The position numbers were made by a program, and so were the translations under genes. Positions 19,880 to 63,941 of a DNA stretch of 64,000 nucleotides are shown piece by piece. Position 1 is the stretch's first letter. Each line of letters starts with the position of its first letter. The notes beneath the pieces are model-generated. The model did not search any database. It was not told where the DNA came from and worked only from the letters and a program-made list of their open reading frames with translations. The stretch is from Actinomycetes bacterium (lineage in GTDB: Bacteria; Actinomycetota; Thermoleophilia; RBG-16-64-13), in NCBI GenBank assembly GCA_024637035.1, contig JAGXFW010000023.1, positions 217,139 through 281,138 on the forward strand. The letters are read 5' to 3'.

Positions 19880-19920
19880 CGGTCCACCGGCGGTCGCGGA
19901 CCGCTCGATCTTCCGGTAGC

Positions 19921-45583: not shown

Positions 45584-45628
45584 GGCGCCGCGATTCTACC
45601 AGAGCGCCACAGTCGGCACGCCGGCAGC

Positions 45629-50868: not shown

Positions 50869-51756
50869 TCAGTCAGCCACCGTGGTTGATGTGGTCCCGT
50901 CGACCCCCGACAGCGTCGTGGTCGTGGATGCTCCCCGCAATCGGTCGAGCAAAGCCCGCGCTTCCGCGTTGTCGGGGTTCTCCGCCAGAGCCTTCTCGAG
51001 TTGCAGGGCGGCGTTGTCCGCTTGATCGACCGCCACCAACTGCTCGGCGAGCGCCACACGGATCTGGTCGAACTGTACCCCCATAGGGCGCATCTCGATC
51101 ACCTCGAAGTAGAGCCTGATGGCCCGGTCGGCGTCGCCGAGTCCGGCGACCGTCTCGGCGAGGGCCACGCGCGCCGCGGTGAAGTCGCTGTTGAGGCGCA
51201 AAGACTCCTCGTAGCTCGCGGCTGCCTCTTCGGGCTGCTCCAGGCGCCTCTGGATGTTCCCGATGCGGAAGTGGGCTTCGAAATCACGGGCGTCGAGTTC
51301 GAGGATGTCCCGGTACACCTGCATAGCGCCGTCCCAATCGAGTCCGCGCTCATACACGAGAGCCAACAAGTAGCGGGCTTGCTTATCCTGCGGATTGACC
51401 TCGAGATGGGCTTCCAGCTTCGACTGAGCGGCCGCCAGGTCACCCGATTGGATGTCCGAGGTGCCGGGGATCGCTTCGCCCAATGTGGTACTGGTGGTCT
51501 CTACGGCCGAAGTGGAAGTAGTCGTCGCGGACTCTCCGCGGAGCGAAGCCGCGATCGCGACCGCGCCGCCGCCGAGAAGTAGGACTACCCCGAGTGCCAG
51601 AAGAAGCCGCCGTACCGCCAAGGAGTCGCCTCCCCATTCGTCCTGGACCGATGCCGCCACGGGGCGATGGCCGCTGGAAAACGCAGCAGAGCGCGACCCG
51701 TACCCGTGGTTCCGAGCCGGAATAGTATGACACATGACTCCGCCTGCGCGCGTCAT
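50869..51756 (-). CDS. membrane-anchored TPR-repeat protein upstream of cytochrome 2
   Basis: TM helix LLLALGVVLLLGGGAVAIA then TPR-like repeats; start uncertain. Confidence 0.5.
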   Translation of the reverse strand: MTRAGGVMCHTIPARNHGYGSRSAAFSSGHRPVAASVQDEWGGDSLAVRRLLLALGVVLLLGGGAVAIAASLRGESATTTSTSAVETTSTTLGEAIPGTSDIQSGDLAAAQSKLEAHLEVNPQDKQARYLLALVYERGLDWDGAMQVYRDILELDARDFEAHFRIGNIQRRLEQPEEAAASYEESLRLNSDFTAARVALAETVAGLGDADRAIRLYFEVIEMRPMGVQFDQIRVALAEQLVAVDQADNAALQLEKALAENPDNAEARALLDRLRGASTTTTLSGVDGTTSTTVAD

Positions 51757-51873: not shown

Positions 51874-52389
51874 ATGGCTCGCAGCGATAAGGATTTCTTG
51901 GGTCTGGAGGTAGTCAGCCTCGAAGACGCGTCGGTCGTGGGTGAGGTGGACGCGCTCATCGTGGACGACACGAAGAACGCCGTCGTCGGTCTGGTGATCG
52001 ACTTGGGCGTATACGAAGCGAAGGCGCTCGCCTTCAGCGACATCTTGAGCATCGGGGAAGACGCCGTCATGATCGGTGCTTCCTCAGCCGTCAGGCCCAT
52101 CTCCCAGCACAGCGCGCTGGAAGCACTCGCCGAGCGCGACGTGCAGGTGGCCGACACACTCGTCATGACGGACCATGGCGATCTCGTGGGCGTAGTCGGA
52201 GACTATTATCTGGACTCCGCCACCGGTGTTATCAAAGGCATCGAAGTCTTGCCGGAAGACATGGGTGACGACGATGTCGCCGCCACCTACCTCGTACCTG
52301 CGTCTGACCTCATCAAGATGAGCGCTGAGCTCGTCATGATCAAGGCCGGGTTCGAAGAACGTGCGGTAGACTCCGAGGAATCTCTCTAG
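51874..52389 (+). CDS. PRC-barrel domain protein (two PRC barrels)
   Basis: LEVVSLEDASVVGEVDALIVDD... and a second copy; paralogous to the N-terminal half of 53150..54337. Confidence 0.6.
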   Translation: MARSDKDFLGLEVVSLEDASVVGEVDALIVDDTKNAVVGLVIDLGVYEAKALAFSDILSIGEDAVMIGASSAVRPISQHSALEALAERDVQVADTLVMTDHGDLVGVVGDYYLDSATGVIKGIEVLPEDMGDDDVAATYLVPASDLIKMSAELVMIKAGFEERAVDSEESL

Positions 52390-52443
52390 TTCGACCAAAC
52401 GGAGGGACTCGACGGGCACCATGACCTCTGAAAGGCACACTAT

Positions 52444-53145
52444 ATGAACATGCTGGTGCTCGCAGTGGCCGGTGTGTTCGTGCTTGCGGGCCTGGTTCTC
52501 ATCGTCCTCTCGTTCCTGGTGGGGCGCGCAAAGCCTGCGTCTGAGTCCGCGCTGGCCGGAGCCTCCGCCGCCGCCCCTACGGAACTCACCGCCGCCTTCA
52601 TCGACCAGCCCCTCGCCAAGGACATGGCGGACGACCTCAGGGATCGCAAGAAGGCCGTGCCGGATGCCGCTGCCGCCGTGACGGCGATCGCGCCAGAAGT
52701 CGCGAGCAAAGTGGCTGCCGATGCTGGTGCAGCCGCTGCCGGTCTCGCGGAAGAGGCCGAGGAGAAGGCCGAGGAGAAGGAAGCCGTCGCGGTCTCGTCC
52801 GCTCCCCCGCCCCCGACGCCCGCCGCGAACCTGGTGGGATTCAACTTCAGGGTGCAACTCGGCTTCAAGTTCCTGCAGAACGGTCTCTACGAAGACGGCG
52901 TGGCCGAGTTCCAGAAGGCGCTCGCCCTCACCGATGACCGCGACGCCAAGCTCAAGCTCTATGTAGAGATCGGCAACGCCTTCCGCACCCAACGCATGAG
53001 CGGACCGGCAGCCGCCTCTTACATGCAGGCTACTTCGTACACGGAGAACCCGATGCTATTGGAGCATCTGGAGAGGACAATCTCGGAGATGATGGAATCG
53101 GACACGTCTACCCAGGGCACGTCCGGATCAACAAAGGAGGAATAA
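52444..53145 (+). CDS. hypothetical membrane-anchored protein with helical-repeat (TPR-like) C-terminus
   Basis: N-terminal TM, Ala/Glu-rich linker, C-terminal helical repeat; no family recognised. Confidence 0.4.
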   Translation: MNMLVLAVAGVFVLAGLVLIVLSFLVGRAKPASESALAGASAAAPTELTAAFIDQPLAKDMADDLRDRKKAVPDAAAAVTAIAPEVASKVAADAGAAAAGLAEEAEEKAEEKEAVAVSSAPPPPTPAANLVGFNFRVQLGFKFLQNGLYEDGVAEFQKALALTDDRDAKLKLYVEIGNAFRTQRMSGPAAASYMQATSYTENPMLLEHLERTISEMMESDTSTQGTSGSTKEE

Positions 53146-53149
53146 AGTT

Positions 53150-54337
53150 ATGGCGAGGATTGATACGGATCTCCTGGGCCTTCAGATCGTCGCGCTCGAC
53201 ACCGCCACTGTGGTGGGCGAAGTGGACGGCCTTCTGATCGATGACGCGACGGTCAAGGTGGCCGGCTTTCTGGTGGATCTGGGCCTCTATGAGGCGTCGG
53301 TCCTGCCGTACTCTTCGGCCCACGCCGTTGGACTCGACGCGGTCGTGGTAGAGAGCGGCTCCAAGATCGCGGCCATCTCGGCCGACCCCGCGCTCGCGGC
53401 CCTCGCGGAGAAGGACATCACCATCACCGACGCCAAGGCGATCACGCGTGAGGGTCGTACGGTCGGTACCATCGGAGACTATTTCATCGACACCGAGACC
53501 GGCGACGTGGTGGGCATGGAGTTCATCGCCGCTGACCAGACGGTGTACCCCCGCGAGACCGCGGTGATCCCCGCGTCGAGCGTCTACCGTCTGGGGCGTG
53601 ACATCATCGTGCTCGAGGCCGACTACGCCCAGCACCTGCAGAAGGACGAGGGTTCGCTGGAGCGGGTAGCCAAGCCGGTCGAGCCGATCAAGGCAGAAGC
53701 CCCCGCAGCTGCCCCGGTCGTCGTCGCTGCGCCCGTACAGCCGGTCGCTGTCGTCGAGCCGGAGCCGGAGCCGCCGGTCGTGTCCGAACCCGCTCCCGTC
53801 GAAGAGCCCCCCGCGCCCGAGCCGGCTCAGGAGTTGGAGGAGGCCTTCGAGGCCATCACCACCCCCGAAGAGGCACCGGCCGTCGAAGCGGCGCAAGAAG
53901 CCGAAGAGGTCGTTGAGGCTATCGAAGAACCGCCCGTCGAATTGGTGGCAGAGCTCAAGGAGATCGAGCCCGAAGTCGAGGTGGCCGAGGAGATCACCCC
54001 GCTTGCAGCGGTGACCCCCGCCTACGCCGACGACACTCTGACCTCGGAGCCCGCCCCCGACCTGTCAGAGCCCCAGACCGCGGTCGAAGAAGCTGTCGTC
54101 GAAGAAGCACCCGTGGCGGAGGCCCCGGTCGAAGAGGCCCCAGCCACGGAAGCTCCCGCCGAAGATGCGTTCACGTCACAGCAGAAGCACTTCCTCATCG
54201 GCAAGCGCGTGCTTCGTCGCATCGAGACTCCCTCCGGCGAACTGATCGCCGACATGGGTGAACTGGTCACGTTCGAGATCATCCAGAAGGCGAAGGGTTC
54301 CGACCAACTTCTCATTCTTTCCCTGAACGTCGAATAG
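53150..54337 (+). CDS. PRC-barrel domain protein with long acidic Pro/Glu-rich linker and conserved C-terminal domain
   Basis: MARIDTDLLGLQIVALDTATVVGEVDGLLIDD (PRC barrel x2), then a PE-rich low-complexity region. Confidence 0.6.
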   Translation: MARIDTDLLGLQIVALDTATVVGEVDGLLIDDATVKVAGFLVDLGLYEASVLPYSSAHAVGLDAVVVESGSKIAAISADPALAALAEKDITITDAKAITREGRTVGTIGDYFIDTETGDVVGMEFIAADQTVYPRETAVIPASSVYRLGRDIIVLEADYAQHLQKDEGSLERVAKPVEPIKAEAPAAAPVVVAAPVQPVAVVEPEPEPPVVSEPAPVEEPPAPEPAQELEEAFEAITTPEEAPAVEAAQEAEEVVEAIEEPPVELVAELKEIEPEVEVAEEITPLAAVTPAYADDTLTSEPAPDLSEPQTAVEEAVVEEAPVAEAPVEEAPATEAPAEDAFTSQQKHFLIGKRVLRRIETPSGELIADMGELVTFEIIQKAKGSDQLLILSLNVE

Positions 54338-54405: not shown

Positions 54406-54889
54406 TATTGTCGACCCCGTGTCACGCCGGCGGTGGACCACGGTTCGGAATCGGTAGAGCCGGAATCGGTCCGTTTTTGTCAGAGTAGAATTGCGTGGTT
54501 GCAGACGAATAATCCGCCGGCTTTCCAAACTAGCTGCAAATGGCGCATTCCTAGACTCAATGCGGTTGATTCGCCGCCTGAAGAAGTCCTTGACAGACCC
54601 CTTGGATGCCTATAGGCTATCGCCTGAGAGTATAAGGAGTTGGAGGCGTAGATCCCCGTTTCCGTACCTGGGCACTTGGGGCGGGGGGAGCCAGTAGTGC
54701 AACCGGCCATGGGGATGGCCGGTTTCTTTCGTTTTTCCGGTTCATCTCAAGAACATGAGACAGTCACTTCAGACCGGGGCCTCGGCCCCGGTCGACTCGT
54801 CTCTAGAGCACTACTACCTGCCGTAGTAGTGCCGATGTTCACGAACTCCTTTCCTCCAGAGACTAATGTGGAAAGGAGGTGAATCGCAA

Positions 54890-57800
54890 ATGAAAATGAA
54901 GAAACTCGTAATCTGTATCACTCTGGTCGCGGCAGTCTTGTTGCTCGCGGCCGCTGCACCCGCGCTGGCTCTGACCAGCACGGACTGCAAGAACTGCCAC
55001 TTGGCACCGCTCGGTGAGGCCACGGGTGCACTGGTGAACTTCGGCGTGAACCCGGTGACGGTACCCGATAAGTGCGTCGTCTGTCACGACGGTGTGAGTA
55101 TGCCGGGGCACAACTTCGCACCCAGCACTCTCACCGACGTGGACAAGATCCACCGTTCGCACACCGGCACACTAAGCTTCGGCCTGGACATGACGGTGCC
55201 GCCGTTCACTACGTGCGGCAACAACGGTTCCGGAGGCTGTCACTCCGGGGTCGTCGACTGCGAATGGTGCCACGGCACCGACATCACCCATCAACTAGCG
55301 GCCCACGGCAACAGCACGCCGGGGACGGTCGTTGCAGGTGTTCCGACGCGCGTGGTCAGCAACATGAACACCGCACCGGTGACCAAGTCGCTCACGTGTC
55401 TTGCGGCGCAATGTCACGCATTGCAGGCGCCGGCGGCAGGACTCTCCCAACAGAGCGTTCTGTTCGCGCCGTCGTGCATCCAATCCGGTTGCCACGGTGA
55501 TGAGTCGCACACCGTCGTCCACGAGCCCGACGCGGCTCTGACGGCGACGTATGCCACCTGCGGAGCCGCCGGTTGTCACGACCTCAACCTGGTCACGGAA
55601 CACGTGACCAATCAGGCGCTCGCTTGCGGCACGTGTCACGACTCGACCGAATCGGCTGTTGTCGGGGCTATCGCCGCCGGCTCAGCTCCTGGTGGAGCCA
55701 AGCAAGGCTGTTACGTCTGTCACGGCGCGGGTGCGGGCAACCATACGCCGCAGCACGCCTTGACGAACCCGGTGCAGCCACCGACGGATTGCCAGTCGGC
55801 CTCGTGCCATGTGGACAACTTGGTCACGGAGCACATCGATCGTCGCGCACTCACATGCGATACCTGCCACGCCGGCTCTACCGCCGTGCAGGGTGTGATC
55901 ACGACGTTCAAGGCCATCGCGCAGAACCCGACGTGTGAGGACTGTCACGGCACGATCACCGGACATGCTGTGCAGCATGACCTGACGAACCCTGTGGCTC
56001 CTCCGGCCGAGTGCCAGTACTGTCACCCCACCAACCTGTTGTCCGTGCACATCAACCCGGTCTTCCCGACCGACGTGAACGGCAGCACCTGGGGGGCGTA
56101 CAACTGCAACACATGTCACTCGCCGAGCAGCAGAGCATATACGTTCGTGACGGCCTTCTCTGCCAGCGCGGCCAACCCCAACTGCGCGACGTGTCACGCG
56201 GTCGCGAGCGTCCACGTCGATCGTCACCTGACGACCTCGACGGCATGCTTCGACAGCGGGTGTCACGTGAGCACCAACCTGGCCACGCTCCACGCGGGGT
56301 ACGGCCGGGGCTGTAACACCTGTCATACGGCTTCTCCGCGCGCCGGAGTCCGCGAGGCCATCCTCGCGAACAACACCTCGTGCGAGGCCTGCCACATGTC
56401 AGGGCACTTCGATCAGCACGCGTTGCCCGCCGACAAGACCATCGGCTCCGGGTACTACAAGTACTCGAACCAATCGTCCGGCACCACCGACTGCGCCATC
56501 TGTCACACGAACAACGTGATCTTGGAGCACACCGGTGACGCCACGACGGGTCGCCCGGCCTGGCTCGCGGCGAACGGCTCACCGCTCAACTGCGACACGT
56601 GCCACAAGAGCACGCGCGCGGCAGTGGTGGCCGCTATCGCGGCAGCCGCAACCGGCCAGCTGACGAACTGCGACCAATGTCACACGGTCCACGGCACGCC
56701 AACGTTGGAGCACCAGTCGCCGACCTCGGCGCCTGACCAGAGCTGCGGCCAGAGTGGGTGCCACAACGCGAACCTGCTGGTGGAGCACGAGATCCGTTGG
56801 GCAGTGGAACCATCGGACACGCAGAACAACACTCTCATGATTGGGGGTGTCTGCAACCGGTGCCACCTCGGCAACACGGGCGCCCTGTCGAAGACCTTGG
56901 TGTTGACGGCCATCGACAACGGCGACCGAACGTGCCAGGCGTGCCACGGCGCGAACGCGGGCGCGGGTCACACCGCGACTCACGATCCCGACGCGGCGCT
57001 CTCGGCTACGTACGCCTCATGTGCCGATCCCGGTTGTCACGTTCTGAACATCGCCACGCAGCACGTCGGCGATACGTTCAAGAGCGGTGTCGTCGGTTCG
57101 TGCAACACGTGTCACAGCAGCACGGCCCCCGCGTACGCCACGGCCGCCATCGCGGCGTGGAAGACCACGGGAGCCAAGCAGGGCTGCTTCGTGTGTCACG
57201 GCGGCAACGCCGGAGCACACCTGACGCAGCACGCGCTCACCAACCCGGTGCAGCCGCCTGTCGCGTGCCAGGGTTCCACGTGTCACGTGGACAACTTGGT
57301 GACGGAGCACGTCGATCGTCGTGCGCTCAACTGCGCCACGTGCCACAGCGGCTCTGCCGCAGTGCAGCAGGTCATCGCGACTTACCGCACGGGTGGCTCG
57401 AAGGCCACCATGAACCCGATGTGCACCGAGTGCCACGGGCCGACGGCCGGTCAGCACGTGCAACAGCACGAGCTCGCCGCGTCCGACTGCTCTCTGTGCC
57501 ACTCGAACAACCTGGTGACCGAGCACATCGTCAACAACCCATTGGGTTGTGACACGTGCCACGGCGCTGGTGCGTCGGCCACGGTGAAGTCGGTGATCGC
57601 CACGTACGGCGGCGCGAATCCGGCACTGCCGCTGTGCACGAGCTGTCACGCCGCGAACACGTATCACGCGGGCGCGACCGCCAAACACACGGCCAACGAA
57701 GAAACCGACTGCCAGAGCTGCCACCTGATGATGCTCCCGACGGAACACGCTCGGAGCACCAGCATCAGCAACTCGCGCAGCTGCGGTGCGTGTCACCCGC

Positions 57801-58375
57801 TGCCATCGTCGTTCGTCTGGACGTACAAGTGTGCGGACTGCCATAAGACCGGCGGTCTGGCTCCGGTGCGCCATCTGGCTGAGACCACGAAGCACGTGTC
57901 CTCTCAGACCTATTGCGCGAAGTCCGGATGCCACGCCAACACGCTGAAGACGGTCCACTCGGTCGTCGGATGCAGTGCGTGCCACAGCACCACCAAGGTA
58001 CCGACCTCGTCGAATTGCCTCACCGCTGGATGCCACGCCACGGGCCTAGCCCATCATGACGTCGCTCCGACGTTCAAGTTCGGCACGACGTCATCGGCCA
58101 ACATCCAACGGGCATGCACGACGGCCTGTCACGAGCACGACAACACGCATCAAAACGGCAACGACTGCTGGGGCAGGTGTCACGGCCCGGGCCTGAGGGA
58201 GGACTTCCACACAGCGGAGTCCGACCATCAAGCGAGCAGCGCGTGCGCCAAGTGCCACAACACGAGCTCGGCTCAGGCAAGCCAGTGCAGGACGTGCCAT
58301 AGCTTCGGCTCGAACTGGTGGGTGCCGTACGACATCCCCACCCCGACGACGACGTCCACCTCGTCCCAGCGATGA
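54890..58375 (+). CDS. giant multiheme c-type cytochrome (~1161 aa) with ~43 heme-binding motifs incl. 10 CX4CH, 2 CX3CH, 1 CX7CH
   Basis: Signal MKMKKLVICITLVAAVLLLAAAAPALA (AGGAGGTG Shine-Dalgarno). 30 CxxCH; plus CLAAQCH, CIQSGCH, CGAAGCH, CQSASCH, CFDSGCH, CGQSGCH, CADPGCH, CQGSTCH, CAKSGCH, CLTAGCH (CX4CH); CTTACH, CWGRCH (CX3CH); CGNNGSGGCH. Repeated diheme modules of the form C-x4-CH-V-x-N-L-V-T-E-H...C-x-T-CH. Confidence 0.85.
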   Translation: MKMKKLVICITLVAAVLLLAAAAPALALTSTDCKNCHLAPLGEATGALVNFGVNPVTVPDKCVVCHDGVSMPGHNFAPSTLTDVDKIHRSHTGTLSFGLDMTVPPFTTCGNNGSGGCHSGVVDCEWCHGTDITHQLAAHGNSTPGTVVAGVPTRVVSNMNTAPVTKSLTCLAAQCHALQAPAAGLSQQSVLFAPSCIQSGCHGDESHTVVHEPDAALTATYATCGAAGCHDLNLVTEHVTNQALACGTCHDSTESAVVGAIAAGSAPGGAKQGCYVCHGAGAGNHTPQHALTNPVQPPTDCQSASCHVDNLVTEHIDRRALTCDTCHAGSTAVQGVITTFKAIAQNPTCEDCHGTITGHAVQHDLTNPVAPPAECQYCHPTNLLSVHINPVFPTDVNGSTWGAYNCNTCHSPSSRAYTFVTAFSASAANPNCATCHAVASVHVDRHLTTSTACFDSGCHVSTNLATLHAGYGRGCNTCHTASPRAGVREAILANNTSCEACHMSGHFDQHALPADKTIGSGYYKYSNQSSGTTDCAICHTNNVILEHTGDATTGRPAWLAANGSPLNCDTCHKSTRAAVVAAIAAAATGQLTNCDQCHTVHGTPTLEHQSPTSAPDQSCGQSGCHNANLLVEHEIRWAVEPSDTQNNTLMIGGVCNRCHLGNTGALSKTLVLTAIDNGDRTCQACHGANAGAGHTATHDPDAALSATYASCADPGCHVLNIATQHVGDTFKSGVVGSCNTCHSSTAPAYATAAIAAWKTTGAKQGCFVCHGGNAGAHLTQHALTNPVQPPVACQGSTCHVDNLVTEHVDRRALNCATCHSGSAAVQQVIATYRTGGSKATMNPMCTECHGPTAGQHVQQHELAASDCSLCHSNNLVTEHIVNNPLGCDTCHGAGASATVKSVIATYGGANPALPLCTSCHAANTYHAGATAKHTANEETDCQSCHLMMLPTEHARSTSISNSRSCGACHPLPSSFVWTYKCADCHKTGGLAPVRHLAETTKHVSSQTYCAKSGCHANTLKTVHSVVGCSACHSTTKVPTSSNCLTAGCHATGLAHHDVAPTFKFGTTSSANIQRACTTACHEHDNTHQNGNDCWGRCHGPGLREDFHTAESDHQASSACAKCHNTSSAQASQCRTCHSFGSNWWVPYDIPTPTTTSTSSQR

Positions 58376-58461
58376 CTACGATATCTCCGAAGCACGCTAC
58401 GTGTTGACGAGGTAGGTCCGATCACGATCGGCTTGTCCGATCTGAGGCCGGGCGGTAGTCC

Positions 58462-58624: not shown

Positions 58625-59641
58625 CTAGTAGGTGTAGACCACCAGCCGGCGCGCGCCGCCGTCGGACACGACGATGCGGTCGTTCGTGATGACGATGCCC
58701 TCAGGAAGGGTCAGCCGCCTGGTGTCGCCGGGGCCACGCCCGTACGTGTAGAGGAGGGCTCCGTCCGAGCCGTACACGTGCACGGCCTGGCCGAACGTGT
58801 CCACCACGTGAAGGCGGCCGAACCTGTCGAAGGCCAGGGCTCGTGGCAGCACCAGCCCTTCCTCGGTATCCGCTTGGTCGATCACCGTGACCACGCCGCT
58901 CTCCGCGCCGATCACCTGCACCCGCTCGTTGTTACTGTCGGCGACGTACACCAGACCGTCGCGATCCACCGCCAGCGCGTTCGGGAAAGAGAACTCACCA
59001 GGATGGAACCCATCGCCCCCGAAGTACCGAAGAAACGAACCGGATGTGGAGAACACCTTCACACGCTGGTCGCCGACATCGGTGAGTAGCACCTCGGTCG
59101 CTGTGACCGCTAGACCCACCGGGGAGAGGAGTTCGGAGCGGGTGCGCTCCTCCTCCGAGATGAAGTCTCCCAGGAACGAACCGTCTGGAGTGAGTCGCCA
59201 CACGCGTCCGTTGGCGGCATCCGCGACCAGGAGCGTGCCGTCGGCCAGCACGCCCACGGCCGTAGGTTGGGGATCGCGGGGCAGTTCCTGCTCGAGGTCG
59301 TCGGGCGTGATAGGGATGAAGCCGATCTGGGCTTCCTGGCCGCCGGTGAGATCGAGCACCGCGACGCGCTGACCCTCGCTATCGGCGACGTACACGCGGC
59401 TCCCCGACACCGCGGAGTTGCGCGGGCGGAACGGCCGGTCGGCCGGTGCCTCCACCGCGTAGAGGAACGAAGGCTCTCCGGCGTTCTGGCCTGGCCCGAG
59501 TGTTGTGGTGGTAGACACGACCTCCGGCGGCGCGCTGTCGACCCGCAGATAGATCGCTACCAGGGCCACGAGCGCCACCGAGAGGACCACGATCAGAGCT
59601 ATGTACAGGCGCCGAGGAGCCGCCATCACCGATGAGCTCAT
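58625..59641 (-). CDS. membrane-anchored NHL-repeat beta-propeller protein
   Basis: N-terminal TM; six NHL-like repeats (e.g. RVYVADSEGQRVAVLD, GTLLVADAANGRVWRLT, LVYVADSNNERVQVI, RLHVVDTFGQAVHVY). Confidence 0.6.
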   Translation of the reverse strand: MSSSVMAAPRRLYIALIVVLSVALVALVAIYLRVDSAPPEVVSTTTTLGPGQNAGEPSFLYAVEAPADRPFRPRNSAVSGSRVYVADSEGQRVAVLDLTGGQEAQIGFIPITPDDLEQELPRDPQPTAVGVLADGTLLVADAANGRVWRLTPDGSFLGDFISEEERTRSELLSPVGLAVTATEVLLTDVGDQRVKVFSTSGSFLRYFGGDGFHPGEFSFPNALAVDRDGLVYVADSNNERVQVIGAESGVVTVIDQADTEEGLVLPRALAFDRFGRLHVVDTFGQAVHVYGSDGALLYTYGRGPGDTRRLTLPEGIVITNDRIVVSDGGARRLVVYTY

Positions 59642-59837: not shown

Positions 59838-60842
59838 GTGTTCAAACCCGCAGAAACCGCGCAACGGGCCGTGGCGCTGCTCGGCCGCCTTCCGCTCAAG
59901 GCTCTCCTCATCGTGGTGGTCTTTCTGTTCGCCGTCGCGGAGGTTGGCTTCGTGGTCCAGGCCACCACCCAGCGCGGGTGCTCGTGGTGCCACGTGCCGG
60001 AGCGCGTCCTTGCCGAGAATTCCGCAGGCAGCCATGCCTCCGTGCGCTGCCTCGATTGCCATAGGACCCAGGGCTCGCTGAACCTGCTGGAACTGAACGT
60101 GCGTGCCGTCCGCAACCTCATCGTGCACGTGAGCCCGTTCTCAGACCCCGACGCCTCCCGGGCATTCGTCCCCTCCTCCACCTGCTTGGCATGCCACGAA
60201 GGCGAGATCGTCGACCGCCTGGCGGTGGCCAACGACATCCGCATGAGGCATTCCGACGTGCTGGACGCGCGCATCCCGTGCGCCTCATGTCACGTTCGAG
60301 CACTCCACATCGCGAGTACCGTCACAACGGGGCTCACTCACGCCAGCTGCTCCTTCTGCCACGACGGCACGACGGCCGGCACAGCGTGCAGTGTCTGTCA
60401 CATGAAAGAGCCCACTGGTGGAGCCGCCCAGCTTCCGGGCATCGAGGCGATAGTCCACGGGCCGGACGTGCGCACCATCCACGGCATGGGCGACCTCAGC
60501 ACCTGCACCACCTGCCACGCCCGCACGTTCTGCAAGAGCTGCCACGGCGTCGAGCTCCCGCACGACCCGAACGCATTCCCGCACCTCCACGGCGCCCAGG
60601 CCATAGAAGCACGCGGAGCCTGCACAGACTGCCACAAGCAGACCTTCTGCGACGCGTGTCACCAGATCGAGATGCCGCATCCCGAGGGCTTCCTACCCGA
60701 ACACGAGGTTCGGCTGCAAGAACTGGACCGAGCAACGTGCGACCGGTGCCACGTGCCTGAAGACTGTCAGTACTGCCACACCGCCCACATCCATCCGGGG
60801 CTTCCTCCTGAAGCGCTCGAGCAGCTGCGCGGCGGCGGATGA
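59838..60842 (+). CDS. membrane-anchored multiheme c-type cytochrome, 12 CxxCH, NapC/NrfH-like N-terminus (candidate quinol dehydrogenase)
   Basis: One TM helix immediately followed by the first CxxCH (VVQATTQRGCSWCH), as in NapC/NirT/NrfH. 12 CxxCH total. Confidence 0.75.
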   Translation: MFKPAETAQRAVALLGRLPLKALLIVVVFLFAVAEVGFVVQATTQRGCSWCHVPERVLAENSAGSHASVRCLDCHRTQGSLNLLELNVRAVRNLIVHVSPFSDPDASRAFVPSSTCLACHEGEIVDRLAVANDIRMRHSDVLDARIPCASCHVRALHIASTVTTGLTHASCSFCHDGTTAGTACSVCHMKEPTGGAAQLPGIEAIVHGPDVRTIHGMGDLSTCTTCHARTFCKSCHGVELPHDPNAFPHLHGAQAIEARGACTDCHKQTFCDACHQIEMPHPEGFLPEHEVRLQELDRATCDRCHVPEDCQYCHTAHIHPGLPPEALEQLRGGG

Positions 60843-60855
60843 GCGAGATGACGGC

Positions 60856-61926
60856 ATGATGTCGTTCCTCCGGACCCTGCTTACCGACATGCGCCAAGTG
60901 TGGGCAGACCCTCAAGCCGACCCGCAGAGGACCGTGGTGTTCATCGCCGCGGGCGCGATCGCGCTGCTTCTTGTGTTCGTGGTGCTCCTCATGATCCTCT
61001 CCTGGGGTCCACGCATCGAGCGAGAGAAGAAACGTCGATGGAGGGAGCGCTTCGTCACGCCTCTCCTGGTGCCCGGGGTCCTGCTCGTGTTCCTGGGCCT
61101 CTTCGTGGCCGGCGACGAGTTCGCCACCGCCCCCACCACCTGCGGCCGCTGTCACGAGATCGCGCCGAGCGTGGCGTCCTGGAACAGTTCGGATCACGCG
61201 GGGAACGACTGCCTGCGCTGCCACGGCGACCGCGGAGTCATGGGGTTCGTCGCCACCCGCGTGCGCGGACTCAGCAACCTGACGACGCACTACCTGGGCG
61301 GCGCACCCCGGCTCGACGCGGGAGTGAGCGACTCGCGCTGCCTTCGGTGCCACGGTGACATCACAACGGGAACCGCCCAGTTCGGCTCACTTCGGGTTCG
61401 CCATGAGGATTTCCTGGGCGTCGGGATCAGCTGCCTCGGATGCCACGGGCAGCCCGGTCACCTGGTCACAGAAGGGTTCGTCGAACGGCCGAGCATGGAC
61501 AAATGCTTGACCTGCCACAACAACCAGGATGCCAGTGCCGCCTGCGCGACCTGCCACCTCACCGACGTGGCCGAGATCCGCGATATCCCCGACTCCTACC
61601 CTAAGGCCCACCTGGCCGAGAAAGGCACCTGCGAAGGCTGTCATAGCCTGGAACCGTGCAAGGAGTGTCACGGCCTCGACATGCCTCATCCGCCTTCGTT
61701 CTCTACATACGAGCATGCCCCTCTGGCCGCATTCGGCGGCAAGGAGGAGCTCTGCTACCGGTGCCACGAACCCGAGGAATGCCGCGAGTGTCACCTGGCC
61801 TTCGATGCGCACGGCCCTGATTGGCAGACACGCCACGGCCTCCAACCGCCGGCGACGTCCAACTGCTCCAGCTGCCACGACGACATCCCCACCACCCCGA
61901 TCTGCGAGTTCTGCCACCAGCCATGA
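60856..61926 (+). CDS. membrane-anchored multiheme c-type cytochrome, 12 CxxCH (paralogous partner of 59838..60842)
   Basis: Two hydrophobic segments then CGRCH... 12 CxxCH; shared C-x-x-CHG-x-x-MPHP patterns with the neighbouring cytochrome. Confidence 0.75.
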   Translation: MMSFLRTLLTDMRQVWADPQADPQRTVVFIAAGAIALLLVFVVLLMILSWGPRIEREKKRRWRERFVTPLLVPGVLLVFLGLFVAGDEFATAPTTCGRCHEIAPSVASWNSSDHAGNDCLRCHGDRGVMGFVATRVRGLSNLTTHYLGGAPRLDAGVSDSRCLRCHGDITTGTAQFGSLRVRHEDFLGVGISCLGCHGQPGHLVTEGFVERPSMDKCLTCHNNQDASAACATCHLTDVAEIRDIPDSYPKAHLAEKGTCEGCHSLEPCKECHGLDMPHPPSFSTYEHAPLAAFGGKEELCYRCHEPEECRECHLAFDAHGPDWQTRHGLQPPATSNCSSCHDDIPTTPICEFCHQP

Positions 61927-63941
61927 GCAGTCCGGCGAAGGCGGCGCCTCCCCTCGCGGTGTGGGCGGCGGCTGCCGCCCTCTTCGCTCTGCCGCTGATC
62001 TACCTGCCCGACTCGCATCACGTGTACGCCCTTCCCAAGGCGACGGTGTTCCGAGCCGCCGTGATTCTCATGCTCCTTGCGGGCTTCATGCGATTGCTGG
62101 GGAAGGACGCCGGAAGACCCGTCTTCCGCGCGCCCGAGCTACTCCTCCTGGGGTTCCTCGCGTGGGTCGCGATGGCGGCGTTCACATCGGGTTGGCCCTT
62201 CGTGGCGTTGTTCGGCACCTCTCCGCGATACGAGGGTGCGCTCGGGTTCTTCGGATATGCGGCCTTCTTCTGGACGGCCTCCCGGGCTACGCTCGCGCAG
62301 ATCAAGCTCTTGCTGCGAGCGATCGCGCTCAGCGGCGCGATCCTTGGCCTCGCCGCGCTCCTCGAGATGCTCGGACCCTTCCGCCCCCCCGGGTTCGGGG
62401 CCTTCGGTCTCCGAGCCACGTCATTGATGGGCAACCCCGTGTTCCTCGGAGCGTGGATGGTCATGGCGATCCCCGCCACGCTCGCCGGGATGTGCCTCAC
62501 CCGCCGCCGCGCGGAGCTGACGTTTGCCCTGGTCGCACTCGGCCTGCAGGCGGCCGGCCTGTATCTCAGCGCCGGCCGGGGAGCCTGGCTCGGCGCGGTG
62601 GCGGGCCTGGTGGTCGCGGGTGCGCTTCTGCTCCTCGTGAGACTGCGCTCGGGAAGACTCAAGGGCCACGGGGAAGCGCGCCGCCGCGGATCCGCCCTGC
62701 CCCACCGGCCGCTCCTCGTGGGCGCGGCGGCCGCAGGCCTCATGGTGGTGGCGGTGGGGCTCACCATCGTCTTCACGCCTGGTGTGGCCGCCAGCGGCAC
62801 CCGCCTGACCGAGGCCTTCGACGCGGTCGCGCAGGGTCAAGGCGGCGGCTCGGCCGAGACCCGACTCGTCATGTGGCGCGCGACACTCGATCTGGTTGCG
62901 GAGCACCCACTGCGGGGCGCTGGCCCGGAGACCTTCCTTGGGGAGTTCCCCCGGGTGCGCCCCTTACGACTCGTGCAGTTGGAGGACGCCGCGGCCTACC
63001 CCGATCGTCCCCACAACAGCTGGCTCTATCTGGCCTACGCGACGGGACTGCCGGGGTTGGCGCTGTACGTGGGGTTCTTGCTTGCCACGGCCTTCCTGGT
63101 AGTCCGGTCCCTCCTTCGGAACCCACACCCGTCCTGGCAGCGCACGATCGTGACCTGCGCCCTGCTCGGAGGTGCGACCGCCTACGAGGTACAGGCGCTG
63201 TTCAGCTTCAGCCTCCTCTGGACGACCCCCGCCGCGATGACCTTGTTGGGCATCACGCTCGCCCTGACCACGCGCGGGGAAGTCGCGGGGGCACTCCGCG
63301 CGCCCGCCTGGGCCGCGCGGGTGGGTGGTGTCGCCCTGTTTGCCGTCGCGCTCGCCCTGCTCGCGCCCGCGGTGCGCGACCCCTGGGCCGACCGGCAGTT
63401 CAGACGCGCCGTGCACGAACCCTGGGTGGCAGTGGAGGCGACCTCCCGGGCCGTGAGTCTCTCCCCCCGCGACGCCGAGTACGTGATCGGGTACGGGCGC
63501 GCTTTGGAGGAGGCGGCCCGCGACCGAGGCGATCCTTCCCTCCTCTCCCGAGCCACCCTCGCCTACGAAGACGCCGAGCGGCGCATCCCCCACCACCCCG
63601 ATATGCTCTTCTCCATCGCCCGAGTGCAGGCCATGCGCGCTGAGCTTCAGACGGCGATCCGCACCTACGAACAGGTGCTCTCTCGCGACCGCTACCACAC
63701 GGGGGCCCTCTTCAACCTGGCGGCCATCCGCCTCGAACTCGGCGACGCTGCCGGTGCGGAGCCCCTAGCCGCGCGCATCTTGTCATACGACGAGTCAGAC
63801 GCGGGTGCCTGGTACCTGCTGGGTCGCGCCCACCAGGCGCAGGGGAGGCCCTCAGAGGCGCGGGAAGCATACGAGCGGGCCCTAACCCTCGACCCCGGTC
63901 TCGACGACGCACAGGCCGCCCTGCAGAGCCTGGGGGGCTGA
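61923..63941 (+). CDS. O-antigen ligase-like (Wzy_C) polytopic membrane protein fused to C-terminal TPR repeats
   Basis: ~11 TM helices with a large loop typical of Wzy_C/O-antigen ligase, C-terminal ~250 aa TPR. ATG at 61923 overlaps the stop of the upstream cytochrome gene (ATGA). Confidence 0.55.
   Translation: MSSPAKAAPPLAVWAAAAALFALPLIYLPDSHHVYALPKATVFRAAVILMLLAGFMRLLGKDAGRPVFRAPELLLLGFLAWVAMAAFTSGWPFVALFGTSPRYEGALGFFGYAAFFWTASRATLAQIKLLLRAIALSGAILGLAALLEMLGPFRPPGFGAFGLRATSLMGNPVFLGAWMVMAIPATLAGMCLTRRRAELTFALVALGLQAAGLYLSAGRGAWLGAVAGLVVAGALLLLVRLRSGRLKGHGEARRRGSALPHRPLLVGAAAAGLMVVAVGLTIVFTPGVAASGTRLTEAFDAVAQGQGGGSAETRLVMWRATLDLVAEHPLRGAGPETFLGEFPRVRPLRLVQLEDAAAYPDRPHNSWLYLAYATGLPGLALYVGFLLATAFLVVRSLLRNPHPSWQRTIVTCALLGGATAYEVQALFSFSLLWTTPAAMTLLGITLALTTRGEVAGALRAPAWAARVGGVALFAVALALLAPAVRDPWADRQFRRAVHEPWVAVEATSRAVSLSPRDAEYVIGYGRALEEAARDRGDPSLLSRATLAYEDAERRIPHHPDMLFSIARVQAMRAELQTAIRTYEQVLSRDRYHTGALFNLAAIRLELGDAAGAEPLAARILSYDESDAGAWYLLGRAHQAQGRPSEAREAYERALTLDPGLDDAQAALQSLGG

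What the first reader, a model, noticed from the sequence alone, without database searches (positions are those of the whole stretch)
54890..58375. A ~43-heme cytochrome built from repeated diheme modules with non-canonical CX4CH, CX3CH and CX7CH heme-binding sites
Direct motif counting gives 30 CxxCH, 10 CX4CH (CLAAQCH, CIQSGCH, CGAAGCH, CQSASCH, CFDSGCH, CGQSGCH, CADPGCH, CQGSTCH, CAKSGCH, CLTAGCH), 2 CX3CH and 1 CX7CH in about 1160 aa. The CX4CH sites recur in a repeated about 45-aa module: C-x4-CH-V-D-N-L-V-T-E-H-(I/V)-D-R-R-A-L-x-C-x-T-CH. The module suggests tandem-duplicated diheme units whose TEH/TQH histidines may be the distal ligands. Extended heme-binding motifs normally need specialised lyases (for example the CX15CH-specific CcsA of Wolinella). 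The two extra CcsBA sets in this window are obvious candidates for that role. One heme per about 27 residues would make this a potential nanowire-like conductor.
Basis: seen in the sequence. Interest (0 to 1): 0.85.

Follow-up and report, generated by a model that had tools for sequence, protein, structure and literature searches.

The report
Riboswitch-controlled 43-heme actinobacterial cytochrome wire

Summary
Observation confirmed exactly. The gene (54890..58375, 1161 aa) has 43 C-Xn-CH sites: 30 X2, 10 X4, 2 X3, 1 X7. Every mature-protein Cys lies in a motif, and shuffles give 2.0±1.4 sites.

The interpretation needs correcting. The repeat is a c7-type triheme unit (H-x3-H, C-x2/4-CH-xxNLxTEH, CxTCH, CxxCH), present 11 times between a 6-heme N-terminal and a 4-heme C-terminal module. 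Three spare His per unit imply bis-His hemes.

CX4CH is position-specific, mostly at the unit's first heme, and swaps with CX2CH at homologous sites in orthologues. It is also common: 115 of the 161 family proteins examined have it. Their median heme count is 43 and the maximum is 125.

Both ResB/CcsA pairs sit in operons with other, canonical-motif cytochromes, so the specialised-lyase idea is unsupported.

Context is a conserved extracellular-electron-transfer cluster of uncultured Actinomycetota. It holds two NapC/NirT-like 12-heme membrane proteins, an NHL propeller and giant Ig-domain cytochromes, with menaquinone genes elsewhere in the window.

New points:
- A c-di-GMP-II riboswitch with an overlapping terminator precedes the gene, here and in 8 of 13 other relatives' loci.
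- This copy has lost the family's C-terminal domain through a 455-bp deletion.

Verdict: real, a new member of a known kind, of moderate interest.

The parts
54590..54618 (+). Promoter-like element: -35 TTGACA (54590-54595), 17-nt spacer, -10 TAGGCT (54613-54618)
   Evidence: Read from the sequence. The TTGACA hexamer is invariant and the -10 hexamer varies at 1-2 positions across the four orthologous loci. The strict sigma-70 scan covered this stretch and reported no promoter. Function is inferred.
54633..54717 (+). c-di-GMP-II riboswitch aptamer (Rfam RF01786)
   Evidence: 61.3 bits against a gathering score of 53.5, E 3e-13, full model 1-84. It is also above gathering at the same position in L002, L005, L006, L012 and L013, and upstream of the distant relatives in L011, L017 and L018.
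54701..54734 (+). Intrinsic-terminator-like hairpin (AACCGGCCAT GGGG ATGGCCGGTT, 54701-54724) plus T-rich tail; its 5' arm overlaps the aptamer 3' end by 17 nt, forming the expression platform
   Evidence: An automated scan returned the same architecture, with different loop sequences, in 8 of 10 riboswitch instances.
54772..54832 (+). Two further conserved leader hairpins (54772-54793 and 54808-54832)
   Evidence: One search shows a G-C to A-T compensatory change in the first hairpin and wobble-compatible changes in the second. Their role is unknown.
54874..54879 (+). Shine-Dalgarno AGGAGG, 10 nt before the ATG
   Evidence: invariant in orthologues.
54890..58375 (+). Coding sequence of the 43-heme c-type cytochrome (1161 aa; mature apo form 117 kDa, about 144 kDa with 43 hemes)
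54890..54970 (+). Sec signal peptide MKMKKLVICITLVAAVLLLAAAAPALA|LTS (27 aa); no other hydrophobic segment and no LPXTG
   Evidence: Read from the sequence plus a hydropathy scan. The cleavage site is inferred.
54986..55495 (+). N-terminal 6-heme module (hemes 1-6; contains the CX7CH site and two CX4CH sites); matches the MtrC/MtrF domain II/IV profile
   Evidence: (PF22113, 32.6 bits against a 30-bit cut-off, residues 37-221).
55496..58036 (+). Eleven tandem c7-type triheme units (hemes 7-39); 7 of 11 first hemes are CX4CH and one third heme is CX4CH
   Evidence: A two-unit fragment model has pLDDT 82.
58115..58300 (+). C-terminal 4-heme module (hemes 40-43; two CX3CH sites), four hemes in about 62 residues with four spare His
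58366..58412 (+). Deletion junction (58365/58366) and out-of-frame vestige of the ancestral 3' end (DDYDISEARYVLTR*, 58368-58412)
   Evidence: tblastn gives 100% identity to the P0002 C-terminus in another frame. The DNA alignment shows 456 bp of L002 replaced by 1 nt. All four orthologues keep the domain.
58625..59641 (-). Membrane-anchored NHL-repeat beta-propeller protein; a conserved partner
   Evidence: Pfam NHL E 2e-23; syntenic in all orthologous loci.
59838..61926 (+). Two NapC/NirT-like 12-heme proteins with N-terminal membrane helices (59838-60842 and 60856-61926); candidate menaquinol dehydrogenases feeding the wire
   Evidence: PF03264; synteny.
61923..63941 (+). Wzy_C (O-antigen-ligase-like) plus TPR membrane protein, overlapping the stop of the preceding gene
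   Evidence: The start comes from the gene call in L001. Synteny.
51874..54337 (+). Three upstream genes: a PRC-barrel protein, a 233-aa membrane protein, and a PRC-barrel protein with an acidic A/E/P/V-rich region
   Evidence: syntenic in all orthologous loci.
42781..51756 (-). Divergent operon: TPR protein, 1687-aa Ig-domain 12-heme cytochrome (all CX2CH), TPR protein, ResB, CcsA
   Evidence: Genes overlap at their start and stop codons. The operon is conserved in L005 and L006 and partly seen in L002.
17889..25913 (-). Second operon of the same design: TPR protein, 1696-aa Ig-domain 16-heme cytochrome (15 CX2CH + 1 CX4CH), ResB, CcsA
   Evidence: CcsA is 32% and ResB 25% identical to the other pair.

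Best explanation
The gene encodes a Sec-exported, soluble multiheme c-type cytochrome of an uncultured Actinomycetota bacterium.

Architecture. It is a concatenation of eleven c7-type triheme domains, flanked by a six-heme MtrC-like N-terminal module and a four-heme C-terminal module. That gives 43 covalently bound hemes, all probably bis-His ligated. Each domain reads H-x3-H ... C-x2/4-CH-xxNLxTEH ... C-x-T-CH ... helix ... C-xx-CH. This is the ligand and motif order of cytochrome c7 (hemes I, III, IV).

Non-canonical sites. The four-residue spacer is a tolerated, position-specific variant of the heme I site and sometimes of heme IV. It is most likely matured by the ordinary System II (ResB/CcsA) machinery.

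Proposed function (inferred). The protein forms an extended chain of closely packed hemes. By analogy with the 12-heme, 12-nm GSU1996, this would be of the order of 40 nm long. It carries electrons between two membrane-anchored NapC/NirT-like 12-heme menaquinol dehydrogenases encoded next to it and the cell surface or beyond, through a monoderm cell wall. The giant Ig-domain cytochromes encoded nearby are candidate terminal reductases.

Regulation. Transcription is gated by a c-di-GMP-II riboswitch whose 3' tail is also the 5' arm of an intrinsic terminator. Ligand binding should prevent termination and switch the gene on when c-di-GMP is high, as in a surface-attached lifestyle.

Shown versus inferred. 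Shown: the motifs, repeat anatomy, conservation, synteny, riboswitch match and terminator overlap. Inferred: heme occupancy, axial ligation, wire geometry, cellular location, electron-flow direction and the sign of the switch.
For: - Motif counts and Cys/His bookkeeping; far above chance.
- Pfam Cytochrome_C7, 92.9 bits against a 24.8-bit cut-off, 11 stretches.
- A strict 1,0,2 free-His periodicity over hemes 7-39, with almost no Met.
- Unit alignments with invariant C, H and TEH-His.
- Orthologues keep 43-47 sites with interchangeable spacings at homologous positions.
- Family-wide positional bias of CX4CH: 26% at heme I, under 1% at heme III, 8% at heme IV.
- The unit profile finds 2347 cluster representatives. 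The 161 family proteins examined have a median of 43 hemes.
- Signal peptide present; no other membrane segment or sortase motif.
- The cluster is conserved in five other loci: L002, L005, L006, L012, L013. It contains NapC/NirT-like 12-heme proteins, an NHL propeller and Ig-domain cytochromes. Futalosine-pathway menaquinone genes lie in the window.
- Organism: MAG titles read 'Actinomycetota bacterium' and 'uncultured actinobacterium'.
- Large cytochromes in subsurface Actinobacteria have been linked to iron reduction (PMC5520028; PMC7399161).
- GSU1996 precedent for c7-domain heme wires (PMC10138318).
- Riboswitch above the Rfam gathering score in 9 of 14 loci, with an overlapping terminator.
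- Geobacter precedent for cyclic-dinucleotide riboswitches turning on extracellular cytochromes by anti-termination (PMC6456294).
Against: - No experimental data exist for any member of this family.
- The full-length AlphaFold2 model is unusable (pLDDT 41).
- Profile hits to solved cytochromes are generic: MtrA, MtrF, OcwA and GSU1996 at 1e-8 to 1e-11, and c7 itself only 0.04.
- The NCBIfam nanowire_3heme model is below its cut-off (26.4 against 40).
- This copy lacks the C-terminal domain that all four orthologues keep. It might therefore be impaired in anchoring or targeting, or the assembly may be wrong at that point.
- The monoderm envelope is assumed from the phylum.
- The direction of electron flow (reduction or uptake) is unknown.
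- The sigma-70 consensus scan did not call the promoter.
Confidence: 0.72

Rival explanations
1. One reading: the CX4CH, CX3CH and CX7CH sites cannot be handled by the housekeeping lyase. The two ResB/CcsA pairs in the window would be dedicated lyases for them, as CcsA1 is for CX15CH in Wolinella.
For: - Two divergent ResB/CcsA pairs (CcsA 32%, ResB 25% identical) lie within 40 kb of the gene.
- Dedicated System II lyases exist for CXXCK and CX15CH (PMC3601427).
- One CX4CH-containing relative (P0018) has ResB/CcsA directly upstream.
- The CX7CH spacing is rare: 4 of 7359 motifs in the family sample.
Against: - Both pairs are in the same operons as other cytochromes with canonical motifs (12/12 and 15/16 CX2CH), not with the 43-heme gene.
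- Relatives with 19, 9, 8 and 8 CX4CH sites have no Ccs gene within the flanks examined.
- CX4CH is present in 115 of the 161 family proteins examined. It interconverts freely with CX2CH at the same site between close orthologues, which would be hard to evolve if a separate enzyme were needed.
- From my own knowledge, not tested here: Desulfovibrio cytochrome c3, which has CX4CH sites, is matured by general machinery, including E. coli Ccm.
- Whether these pairs are 'extra' is unknown. No third set lies in the window and the rest of the genome was not seen.
Confidence: 0.1
2. The protein is mainly an electron store (a capacitor) in the wall zone rather than a through-conduit. It would buffer respiration when external acceptors are scarce, as proposed for GSU1996.
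For: - 43 probable low-potential bis-His hemes in one soluble polypeptide.
- The literature assigns a capacitor role to c7-domain polymers (PMC10138318; PMC11492766).
- This copy has lost its C-terminal domain, which might be an anchoring or targeting domain.
Against: The gene is embedded between membrane quinol-dehydrogenase-like cytochromes and surface-type Ig-domain cytochromes in a conserved cluster, which fits a relay. The two roles are not exclusive, and nothing here separates them.
Confidence: 0.15
3. Some non-canonical sites, above all CX7CH (CGNNGSGGCH), are not heme sites. The true heme count would then be lower, about 42 or fewer.
For: - CX7CH is not among the motifs listed as known in PMC11492766.
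- The spacer is a lineage-specific Gly/Asn-rich insertion absent from all orthologues.
Against: - The site aligns with CX2CH or CX3CH motifs in all four orthologues.
- Leaving it empty would leave two free Cys in an otherwise Cys-free exported protein.
- There are 44 spare His for 43 hemes.
Confidence: 0.12
4. The truncated gene is a decaying or misassembled copy and is not functional in this organism.
For: A 455-bp net deletion with a frameshift removes the Thr-rich linker and the roughly 150-aa C-terminal domain that all orthologues keep. The old stop region survives out of frame.
Against: - All 43 heme sites, the signal peptide, the Shine-Dalgarno, the promoter-like element and the riboswitch are intact.
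- The new stop comes 3 codons after the junction, so the product is a clean truncation.
- An identical 1161-aa protein was assembled independently from run SRR13628066, although possibly from the same data.
Confidence: 0.15

Closest known systems
GSU1996-type 'nanowire' cytochromes of Geobacter sulfurreducens (polymers of c7-type triheme domains; PDB 3OV0)
   Same: Both are tandem c7-type triheme domains in a single polypeptide. GSU1996 has a linear heme chain with 3-5 Angstrom edge-to-edge distances (PMC10138318). The profile hit to 3OV0 has E 1.3e-8, and Pfam Cytochrome_C7 gives 11 stretches.
   Different: - 11 domains plus two extra modules (43 hemes), against 4 domains (12 hemes).
- No His-Met heme: three spare His per unit and almost no Met, whereas GSU1996 has one His-Met heme per domain.
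- CX4CH at heme I in 7 of 11 units.
- Below the TIGR04257 cut-off.
- The host is an Actinomycetota, presumed monoderm, not a diderm with a periplasm.
Cytochrome c7 / PpcA and tetraheme cytochrome c3 (class III cytochromes)
   Same: The order of ligands and motifs within a unit (two His, heme I motif, His, heme III motif, heme IV motif) and bis-His ligation are shared. c3 is the classical carrier of CX4CH sites (PMC11492766 lists CX4CH as a known motif). The c7 ligand order and the c3 site positions come from my own knowledge.
   Different: - c7 itself scores only E 0.04 against the two-unit profile.
- The CX4CH here is at the heme I position, whereas in c3 it is at hemes II and IV (own knowledge).
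- The units here are longer, with a conserved NLxTEH element and an A-rich helix.
Gram-positive extracellular electron transfer cytochromes of Thermincola and Carboxydothermus (for example OcwA, PDB 6I5B)
   Same: Both are multiheme cytochromes proposed to carry electrons across a thick cell wall of a monoderm (PMC6703420, PMC7911101 and PMC7829351, titles and abstracts). The profile hit to OcwA has E 7e-9.
   Different: Those systems use several smaller cytochromes (6-10 hemes) in relay. Here a single polypeptide of 43 hemes could in principle span the distance. There is no close sequence relationship.
Giant multiheme cytochromes catalogued in metagenomes (Ca. Methanoperedens with 50 or more hemes; Desulfuromonadia up to 87; Rifle aquifer genomes up to 53)
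   Same: Same order of size and heme density. They have been counted with CX2-4CH motifs in earlier surveys (PMC5520028; PMC11492766; PMC7399161).
   Different: Those surveys did not dissect this repeat, its positional CX4CH bias or its riboswitch. The family retrieved here reaches 125 hemes.
Geobacter GEMM-Ib (cGAMP) riboswitch regulon of extracellular cytochromes (pgcA, omcAHG, omcST)
   Same: A cyclic-dinucleotide riboswitch in the leader of an extracellular multiheme cytochrome gene, acting through a terminator/anti-terminator platform as an ON switch (PMC6456294).
   Different: Different riboswitch class (c-di-GMP-II, RF01786, not GEMM-I), a different presumed ligand (c-di-GMP) and a different phylum. 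In the searchable library I found no paper linking class II riboswitches to cytochromes.
Wolinella succinogenes dedicated heme lyases (NrfI for CXXCK, CcsA1 for CX15CH of MccA)
   Same: System II lyase paralogues encoded near multiheme cytochrome genes (PMC3601427).
   Different: In Wolinella the lyase serves a motif with a changed ligand or a 15-residue spacer. Here the paralogues are operon partners of canonical-motif cytochromes, and no link to CX4CH was found.

Membership tests
c7-type / class III multiheme cytochrome (Pfam PF14522 Cytochrome_C7) | Profile score above the curated cut-off | tested here: met
   92.9 bits against 24.8, E 1.1e-26, 11 matched stretches.
c7-type / class III multiheme cytochrome (Pfam PF14522 Cytochrome_C7) | Three heme motifs per domain with three additional His in the order H..H, motif, H, motif, motif (bis-His for all three) | tested here: met
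   Free-His pattern 1,0,2 repeated 11 times. Invariant His columns in the unit alignments. Actual ligation cannot be tested with these tools.
c7-type / class III multiheme cytochrome (Pfam PF14522 Cytochrome_C7) | Three-dimensional similarity to solved c7/c3 folds | tested here: inconclusive
GSU1996-type nanowire cytochromes (NCBIfam TIGR04257 nanowire_3heme) | Domain model score above cut-off | tested here: not met
   26.4 bits against a 40-bit cut-off, one stretch.
GSU1996-type nanowire cytochromes (NCBIfam TIGR04257 nanowire_3heme) | Tandem triheme c7-type domains in one chain | tested here: met
   Eleven units.
GSU1996-type nanowire cytochromes (NCBIfam TIGR04257 nanowire_3heme) | One His-Met coordinated heme per domain | tested here: not met
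   No conserved Met in the units, and most inter-motif segments have no Met at all. There are three spare His per unit. The defining feature is taken from PMC10138318.
MtrC/OmcA/MtrF-type surface decaheme cytochromes | MtrC/MtrF domain II/IV profile (PF22113) above cut-off | tested here: met
   32.6 bits against 30, for the N-terminal module only (residues 37-221). This is marginal. The whole-protein decaheme models are far below their cut-offs.
Filament-forming cytochromes (OmcS, OmcE, OmcZ) | Sequence relationship to a filament subunit; 4-8 hemes per subunit polymerising head to tail | tested here: not met
   No PDB chain matched by phmmer. No chain labelled OmcS, OmcE or OmcZ appears among the 60 best of 99 profile hits listed. 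The protein is a single 43-heme chain. Polymerisation itself cannot be tested here.
Substrate of a dedicated System II heme lyase (Wolinella MccA/CcsA1 or NrfA/NrfI type) | Lyase paralogue genetically linked to the variant-motif cytochrome | tested here: not met
   Both ResB/CcsA pairs are operon partners of other cytochromes with canonical motifs. The 43-heme gene is a separate, riboswitch-led unit.
Substrate of a dedicated System II heme lyase (Wolinella MccA/CcsA1 or NrfA/NrfI type) | Variant motif cannot be matured by the general lyase | not testable with these tools
   This needs expression and maturation assays. Indirect evidence against it: X4 and X2 interchange freely between orthologues.
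c-di-GMP-II riboswitch (Rfam RF01786) | Covariance-model score at or above the gathering score | tested here: met
   61.3 bits against 53.5. Ten instances in nine related loci score 54.9-74.0 bits.
c-di-GMP-II riboswitch (Rfam RF01786) | Placement in a 5' leader with an expression platform | tested here: met
   The aptamer lies 172 nt upstream of the ATG, after a promoter-like element. Its 3' tail forms the 5' arm of a terminator-like hairpin, an arrangement returned by an automated scan in 8 of 10 instances.
c-di-GMP-II riboswitch (Rfam RF01786) | Binds c-di-GMP and changes gene expression | not testable with these tools
   Needs in-line probing or ITC, plus transcription termination assays.

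The most novel reading that the evidence does not exclude
In uncultured Actinomycetota and several other lineages, a class II c-di-GMP riboswitch regulon switches on giant single-polypeptide heme wires of 26-58 hemes. These wires would bridge the whole cell wall of a monoderm, roughly 40 nm here. This would be a second, independent invention of cyclic-dinucleotide riboswitch control of extracellular electron transfer, alongside the Geobacter cGAMP/GEMM-Ib system. Within these wires, the CX4CH spacer at the first heme of the c7-type unit would be a selected structural device, for example one that sets heme orientation or potential at domain junctions, and not just drift.
Probability: 0.35. Interest if true: 0.65.

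Novelty: new member of a known kind. Interest (0 to 1): 0.45.

Why it matters
The finding as submitted is real but not exceptional. A 43-heme count and CX4CH sites are the norm in a family with thousands of database representatives, and no special lyase needs to be invoked.

Four results are useful beyond that.
1. The analysis defines the correct repeat: a c7-type triheme unit with the signature C-x2/4-CH-xxNLxTEH ... CxTCH ... CxxCH. A profile built from it retrieves the family.
2. CX4CH has a strong positional bias within the unit. This gives a concrete handle for structure and redox-potential studies.
3. The gene sits in a conserved actinobacterial electron-transfer cluster, with quinol-dehydrogenase-like cytochromes, an NHL propeller and Ig-domain cytochromes that have their own Ccs genes. 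That cluster is a testable blueprint for how monoderm Actinomycetota could respire minerals.
4. A c-di-GMP-II riboswitch with a conserved terminator platform precedes such giant cytochrome genes in 9 of 14 loci. This ties second-messenger signalling directly to expression of the wire and can be tested in vitro with a roughly 110-nt RNA.

Tried and rejected
- **Full-length AlphaFold2 model.** Run with a 16-sequence alignment, it gave mean pLDDT 41 and pTM 0.25. It is unusable and was not fold-searched.
- **phmmer of the protein against PDB sequences.** No hit. The profile search gave only generic multiheme hits.
- **The listing of cluster members.** No names or accessions were returned.
- **Literature on System II specificity for CX3CH/CX4CH.** Nothing in the searchable library. 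The statement that general machinery matures CX4CH rests on my own knowledge of cytochrome c3.
- **Diheme unit.** Considered and rejected. The free-His periodicity and Pfam both give a period of three hemes.
- **Lipoprotein.** Rejected. The only non-motif Cys lies at the start of the signal-peptide hydrophobic core without a lipobox.
- **Sortase anchoring.** Rejected; there is no LPXTG or LAXTG.
- **Catalytic enzyme with an open heme site.** Unlikely; there are 44 spare His for 43 hemes.
- **A third Ccs set in the window.** Rejected. The 61.9-63.9 kb gene is a Wzy_C/TPR protein, and no other ResB or CcsA was found.
- **The terminator-like hairpin at 54701 as merely the terminator of the upstream gene.** Less likely. 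It overlaps the riboswitch and lies downstream of a conserved promoter-like element.

Full report
**1. The observation**

The ORF list shows a 1169-codon frame at 54866..58375. The real start is the ATG at 54890. An AGGAGG Shine-Dalgarno lies 10 nt upstream, the leader up to that ATG is conserved in orthologues, and database protein P0001 (1161 aa, 100% identical) begins there.

Of 87 Cys, 86 are in these motifs and one is in the signal peptide. Of 87 His, 43 are proximal and 44 are spare. Two thousand residue shuffles give 2.0 +/- 1.4 motifs, with a maximum of 9.

**2. Anatomy**

Pfam assigns Cytochrome_C7 (PF14522; 92.9 bits against a 24.8-bit cut-off; 11 stretches). The MtrC/MtrF domain II/IV profile matches the N-terminal residues 37-221 marginally. 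NCBIfam's nanowire_3heme model is below its cut-off (26.4 against 40).

Writing the protein out motif by motif shows that, from heme 7 to heme 39, the number of free His after each motif cycles 1, 0, 2 exactly eleven times, with almost no Met. The repeat is therefore a triheme unit of 62-92 residues:
- H-x3-H
- C-x2/4-CH-xx-N-L-x-T-E-H (first heme)
- C-x-T-CH (second heme), followed by an Ala-rich helix
- C-xx-CH (third heme)

This order of ligands and motifs is that of cytochrome c7 hemes I, III and IV (my own knowledge of PpcA). The three spare His per three hemes imply bis-His ligation throughout.

Its literal consensus comes from two units (hemes 10-11 and 28-29) that belong to a two-unit segmental duplication. 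The two-unit segments 211-363 and 695-860 (1169-codon numbering) are 59% identical.

Flanking the eleven units are a six-heme N-terminal module and a very dense four-heme C-terminal module. The mature protein has a 27-residue Sec signal, no other hydrophobic segment and no sortase motif. It would weigh about 144 kDa with 43 hemes.

**3. Are the non-canonical sites real heme sites?**

Four orthologues were compared: P0002, P0003 and the genes in L005 and L006, at 50-77% identity. They carry 43, 43, 47 and 44 motifs, collinear with the query. Thirty of the 43 sites have the same spacing in all five proteins.

Every non-canonical site of the query aligns with a heme motif in the others, often with a different spacing:
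- CGAAGCH against CVACH
- CQGSTCH against CRWCH
- CSLCH against CVTLSCH
- CLTAGCH against CRTCH and CKVCH
- CWGRCH against CMKCH
- CGNNGSGGCH against CTEACH, CSGSCH and CEGCH

Together with the absence of any spare Cys, this makes heme attachment at all 43 sites the most economical reading. CX7CH is the least certain. It is a lineage-specific Gly/Asn-rich insertion, and that spacing is rare in the family (4 of 7359 motifs).

**4. How unusual is it?**

A profile of the eleven units was searched against 1.84 billion cluster representatives. It finds 2347 proteins at E <= 1e-3 and 109 at E <= 1e-30.

I examined 161 family proteins: the best hits of that search plus the earlier homologues. Among them:
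- the median heme count is 43, 86 have 43 or more, and the maximum is 125
- 115 contain CX4CH and 17 have ten or more such sites
- 33 of the 147 with at least 20 hemes are as densely packed or denser

CX4CH is strongly position-specific. It makes up 26% of first-heme sites, under 1% of second-heme sites and 8% of third-heme sites. In the query, 7 of the 10 CX4CH sites are at the first heme of a unit.

The literature already lists CX3CH and CX4CH as known motifs and reports cytochromes with up to 87 motifs (PMC11492766). Earlier metagenome surveys counted CX2-4CH motifs and found proteins with 40-53 hemes, and noted large cytochromes in subsurface Actinobacteria (PMC7399161; PMC5520028). The protein is thus a typical member of a large, experimentally uncharacterised family.

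**5. Structure**

The full-length AlphaFold2 model failed (pLDDT 41). I assembled a 39-sequence alignment of in-phase two-unit segments from the query and its homologues. This gave a confident model of residues 695-860 (pLDDT 82.4, pTM 0.66).

A sequence profile of the same alignment hits solved multiheme cytochromes only generically: 6R2Q chain A, MtrF, UndA, OcwA and GSU1996 at 1e-8 to 1e-11, and c7 at 0.04. The closest described architecture is GSU1996, which has four c7-type triheme domains forming a heme wire with one His-Met heme per domain (PMC10138318). The present protein lacks the His-Met feature.

**6. Genomic context and likely function**

The window holds five multiheme cytochrome genes. 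Immediately downstream of the 43-heme gene lie:
- a membrane-anchored NHL propeller, encoded convergently
- two NapC/NirT-like 12-heme proteins with N-terminal membrane helices
- a Wzy_C/TPR membrane protein

Upstream are two PRC-barrel proteins and a small membrane protein. Divergent from them is an operon encoding a TPR protein, a 1687-aa Ig-domain 12-heme cytochrome, a second TPR protein, ResB and CcsA. A second operon of the same design, with a 16-heme Ig-domain cytochrome, lies at 17.9-25.9 kb. Futalosine-pathway menaquinone genes and a Rex regulator are also present.

The cluster is syntenic in five other loci (L002, L005, L006, L012, L013). L005 and L006 come from MAGs titled 'Actinomycetota bacterium' and 'uncultured actinobacterium'.

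In L005 and L006 most neighbouring genes are 85-95% identical to those in the window, whereas the 43-heme protein is only 70-77% identical. The same slot holds 26 to 47 hemes in different genomes. The wire therefore evolves fast by gain and loss of units.

The best-supported model, which is an inference, is a relay: menaquinol, then the NapC/NirT-like 12-heme proteins, then the 43-heme soluble wire through the wall, then surface Ig-domain cytochromes or minerals. Scaling from 12 hemes per 12 nm in GSU1996 gives roughly 40 nm. A capacitor role is not excluded.

**7. The lyase hypothesis**

The two ResB/CcsA pairs are old paralogues (CcsA 32% and ResB 25% identical). Each overlaps its neighbours in an operon with an Ig-domain cytochrome whose motifs are canonical (12/12 and 15/16 CX2CH). 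The 43-heme gene is a separate transcription unit.

Relatives with 19, 9, 8 and 8 CX4CH sites have no Ccs gene in the flanks examined, while one with 5 CX4CH sites does. Dedicated lyases are documented for CXXCK and CX15CH (PMC3601427).

Nothing here links the Ccs paralogues to CX4CH. They look like maturation capacity dedicated to, or co-regulated with, the Ig-domain cytochromes. The idea is not excluded, especially for CX7CH, but it is unsupported.

**8.

The 550-nt region upstream of the gene is more conserved (87% nucleotide identity near the gene) than the coding sequence. It contains, in order:
- a promoter-like TTGACA, a 17-nt spacer, then TAGGCT at 54590-54618
- a full-length c-di-GMP-II riboswitch at 54633-54717 (RF01786; 61.3 bits against a 53.5-bit gathering score; E 3e-13)
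- a 10-bp GC-rich hairpin with a T-rich tail at 54701-54734, whose 5' arm is the conserved 3' tail of the aptamer
- two further conserved hairpins

This is the only Rfam hit at gathering level in the whole window.

The riboswitch is above the gathering score in front of the orthologous gene in L002, L005, L006, L012 and L013. It is also in front of distant relatives in unrelated contexts: L011 (58 hemes, 74 bits), L017 (37 hemes) and L018 (50 hemes). That makes 9 of 14 distinct loci.

An automated scan returned the overlapping terminator in 8 of 10 riboswitch instances, with conserved arms and divergent loops. In L013 the same arms are visible by eye, and L012 is unresolved.

The ligand-bound aptamer uses the terminator's 5' arm, so c-di-GMP should favour read-through. 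That would make this an ON switch, which is an inference. The analogy is the cGAMP-sensing GEMM-Ib regulon of Geobacter, which turns on pgcA, omcAHG and omcST by anti-termination (PMC6456294). I found no paper in the searchable library that connects class II c-di-GMP riboswitches with cytochromes.

**9. A defect in this copy**

All four orthologues continue after a Thr/Ser-rich linker into a roughly 150-aa C-terminal domain ending in ISEARYVLTR. That domain has only a sub-threshold CBM96-like hit.

In the window the gene stops inside the linker. The last 15 codons of the ancestral gene survive out of frame at 58368-58412, 100% identical to P0002. DNA alignment shows 456 bp of L002 replaced by a single nucleotide at 58366, a net loss of 455 bp that shifts the frame.

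This is either a recent deletion or an assembly collapse in the low-complexity linker. The 43 heme sites are unaffected.

**10. Verdict**

It is wrong on the unit (triheme, not diheme), on exceptionality, and probably on the need for special lyases.

Novelty is that of a new member of a known kind. The conserved riboswitch control and the defined triheme signature with positional CX4CH bias are the parts most worth following up.

Noticed in passing
window 54633-54734 (+); also L002 9761-9826, L005 9744-9828, L006 9744-9828, L012 5757-5825, L013 5750-5833, L011 9814-9898, L017 2814-2898, L018 2798-2882: A c-di-GMP-II riboswitch (RF01786, above the gathering score) with an overlapping terminator hairpin sits directly upstream of the giant cytochrome gene in 9 of 14 loci examined. 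Three of these are distant relatives in unrelated genomic contexts.
   Followed up: yes
window 58366-58412: The gene has lost its Thr-rich linker and the roughly 150-aa C-terminal domain kept by all four orthologues, through a net 455-bp frameshifting deletion. The old last 15 codons (DDYDISEARYVLTR*) survive out of frame. This is either a real deletion or an assembly collapse.
   Followed up: yes
window 54772-54793 and 54808-54832: Two more perfectly paired hairpins lie in the leader between the riboswitch terminator and the Shine-Dalgarno. They are conserved in four genomes, with one compensatory G-C to A-T change and wobble-compatible changes. Their role is unknown (RNA stability, a second regulatory step, or a protein operator).
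   Followed up: partly
window 17889-25913 (-) and 42781-51756 (-): Two operons of the same design: a TPR protein, a roughly 1690-aa cytochrome with bacterial Ig-like (Big_5) domains and 16 or 12 hemes, then ResB and CcsA. The two cytochromes are barely similar to each other, and the Ccs pairs are only 25-32% identical. Each giant surface-type cytochrome seems to bring its own maturation genes.
   Followed up: partly
window 54890-58375 compared with L002, L005, L006, L012, L013: In L005 and L006 the wire cytochrome diverges much faster (70-77% identity) than most of its syntenic neighbours (85-95%). The same genomic slot holds 26, 43, 43, 43, 44 or 47 hemes in different genomes, which indicates gain and loss of repeat units.
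   Followed up: partly
window 61923-63941 (+): A Wzy_C (O-antigen-ligase-like) membrane protein with C-terminal TPR repeats overlaps the stop of the second NapC-like cytochrome gene and is syntenic everywhere. L002 has two such genes. Given the Thr/Ser-rich linkers in the cytochromes, it could be a protein O-glycosylation enzyme.
   Followed up: no
window 51874-54337 (+): Two PRC-barrel domain proteins, the second with a long acidic Ala/Glu/Pro/Val-rich region, and a 233-aa membrane protein always precede the wire gene in the syntenic clusters. Their role is unknown.
   Followed up: no
window 25937-28988 and 32070-35269 (-): Menaquinone biosynthesis genes of the futalosine type (two MqnC/MqnE-like radical SAM proteins, UbiA, UbiD and UbiE homologues) and a Rex-type redox regulator (35289-35933) lie between the two cytochrome regions. 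This is consistent with a quinol-fed electron export system.
   Followed up: no
window 3887-5620 (-): A 577-aa protein matches DUF2193 ('uncharacterized protein conserved in archaea') at E 2e-224. It lies next to an aquaporin-type channel and flavoprotein genes, which is an odd family to find in an actinobacterial contig.
   Followed up: no
L018 1474-1557: A second c-di-GMP-II riboswitch on the same contig precedes an unannotated 291-aa gene just upstream of the riboswitch-led 50-heme cytochrome. This hints at a small riboswitch regulon.
   Followed up: no
L009 1-8594: The CX4CH-free 54-heme relative P0009 is encoded right after a complete type II secretion gene set (T2SSE, T2SSF, pseudopilins, secretin). 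This suggests secretion across an outer membrane in a diderm host.
   Followed up: no
window 30048-30715 (+): A Phd/YefM antitoxin plus PIN-domain toxin pair (type II toxin-antitoxin) lies between the menaquinone genes.
   Followed up: no
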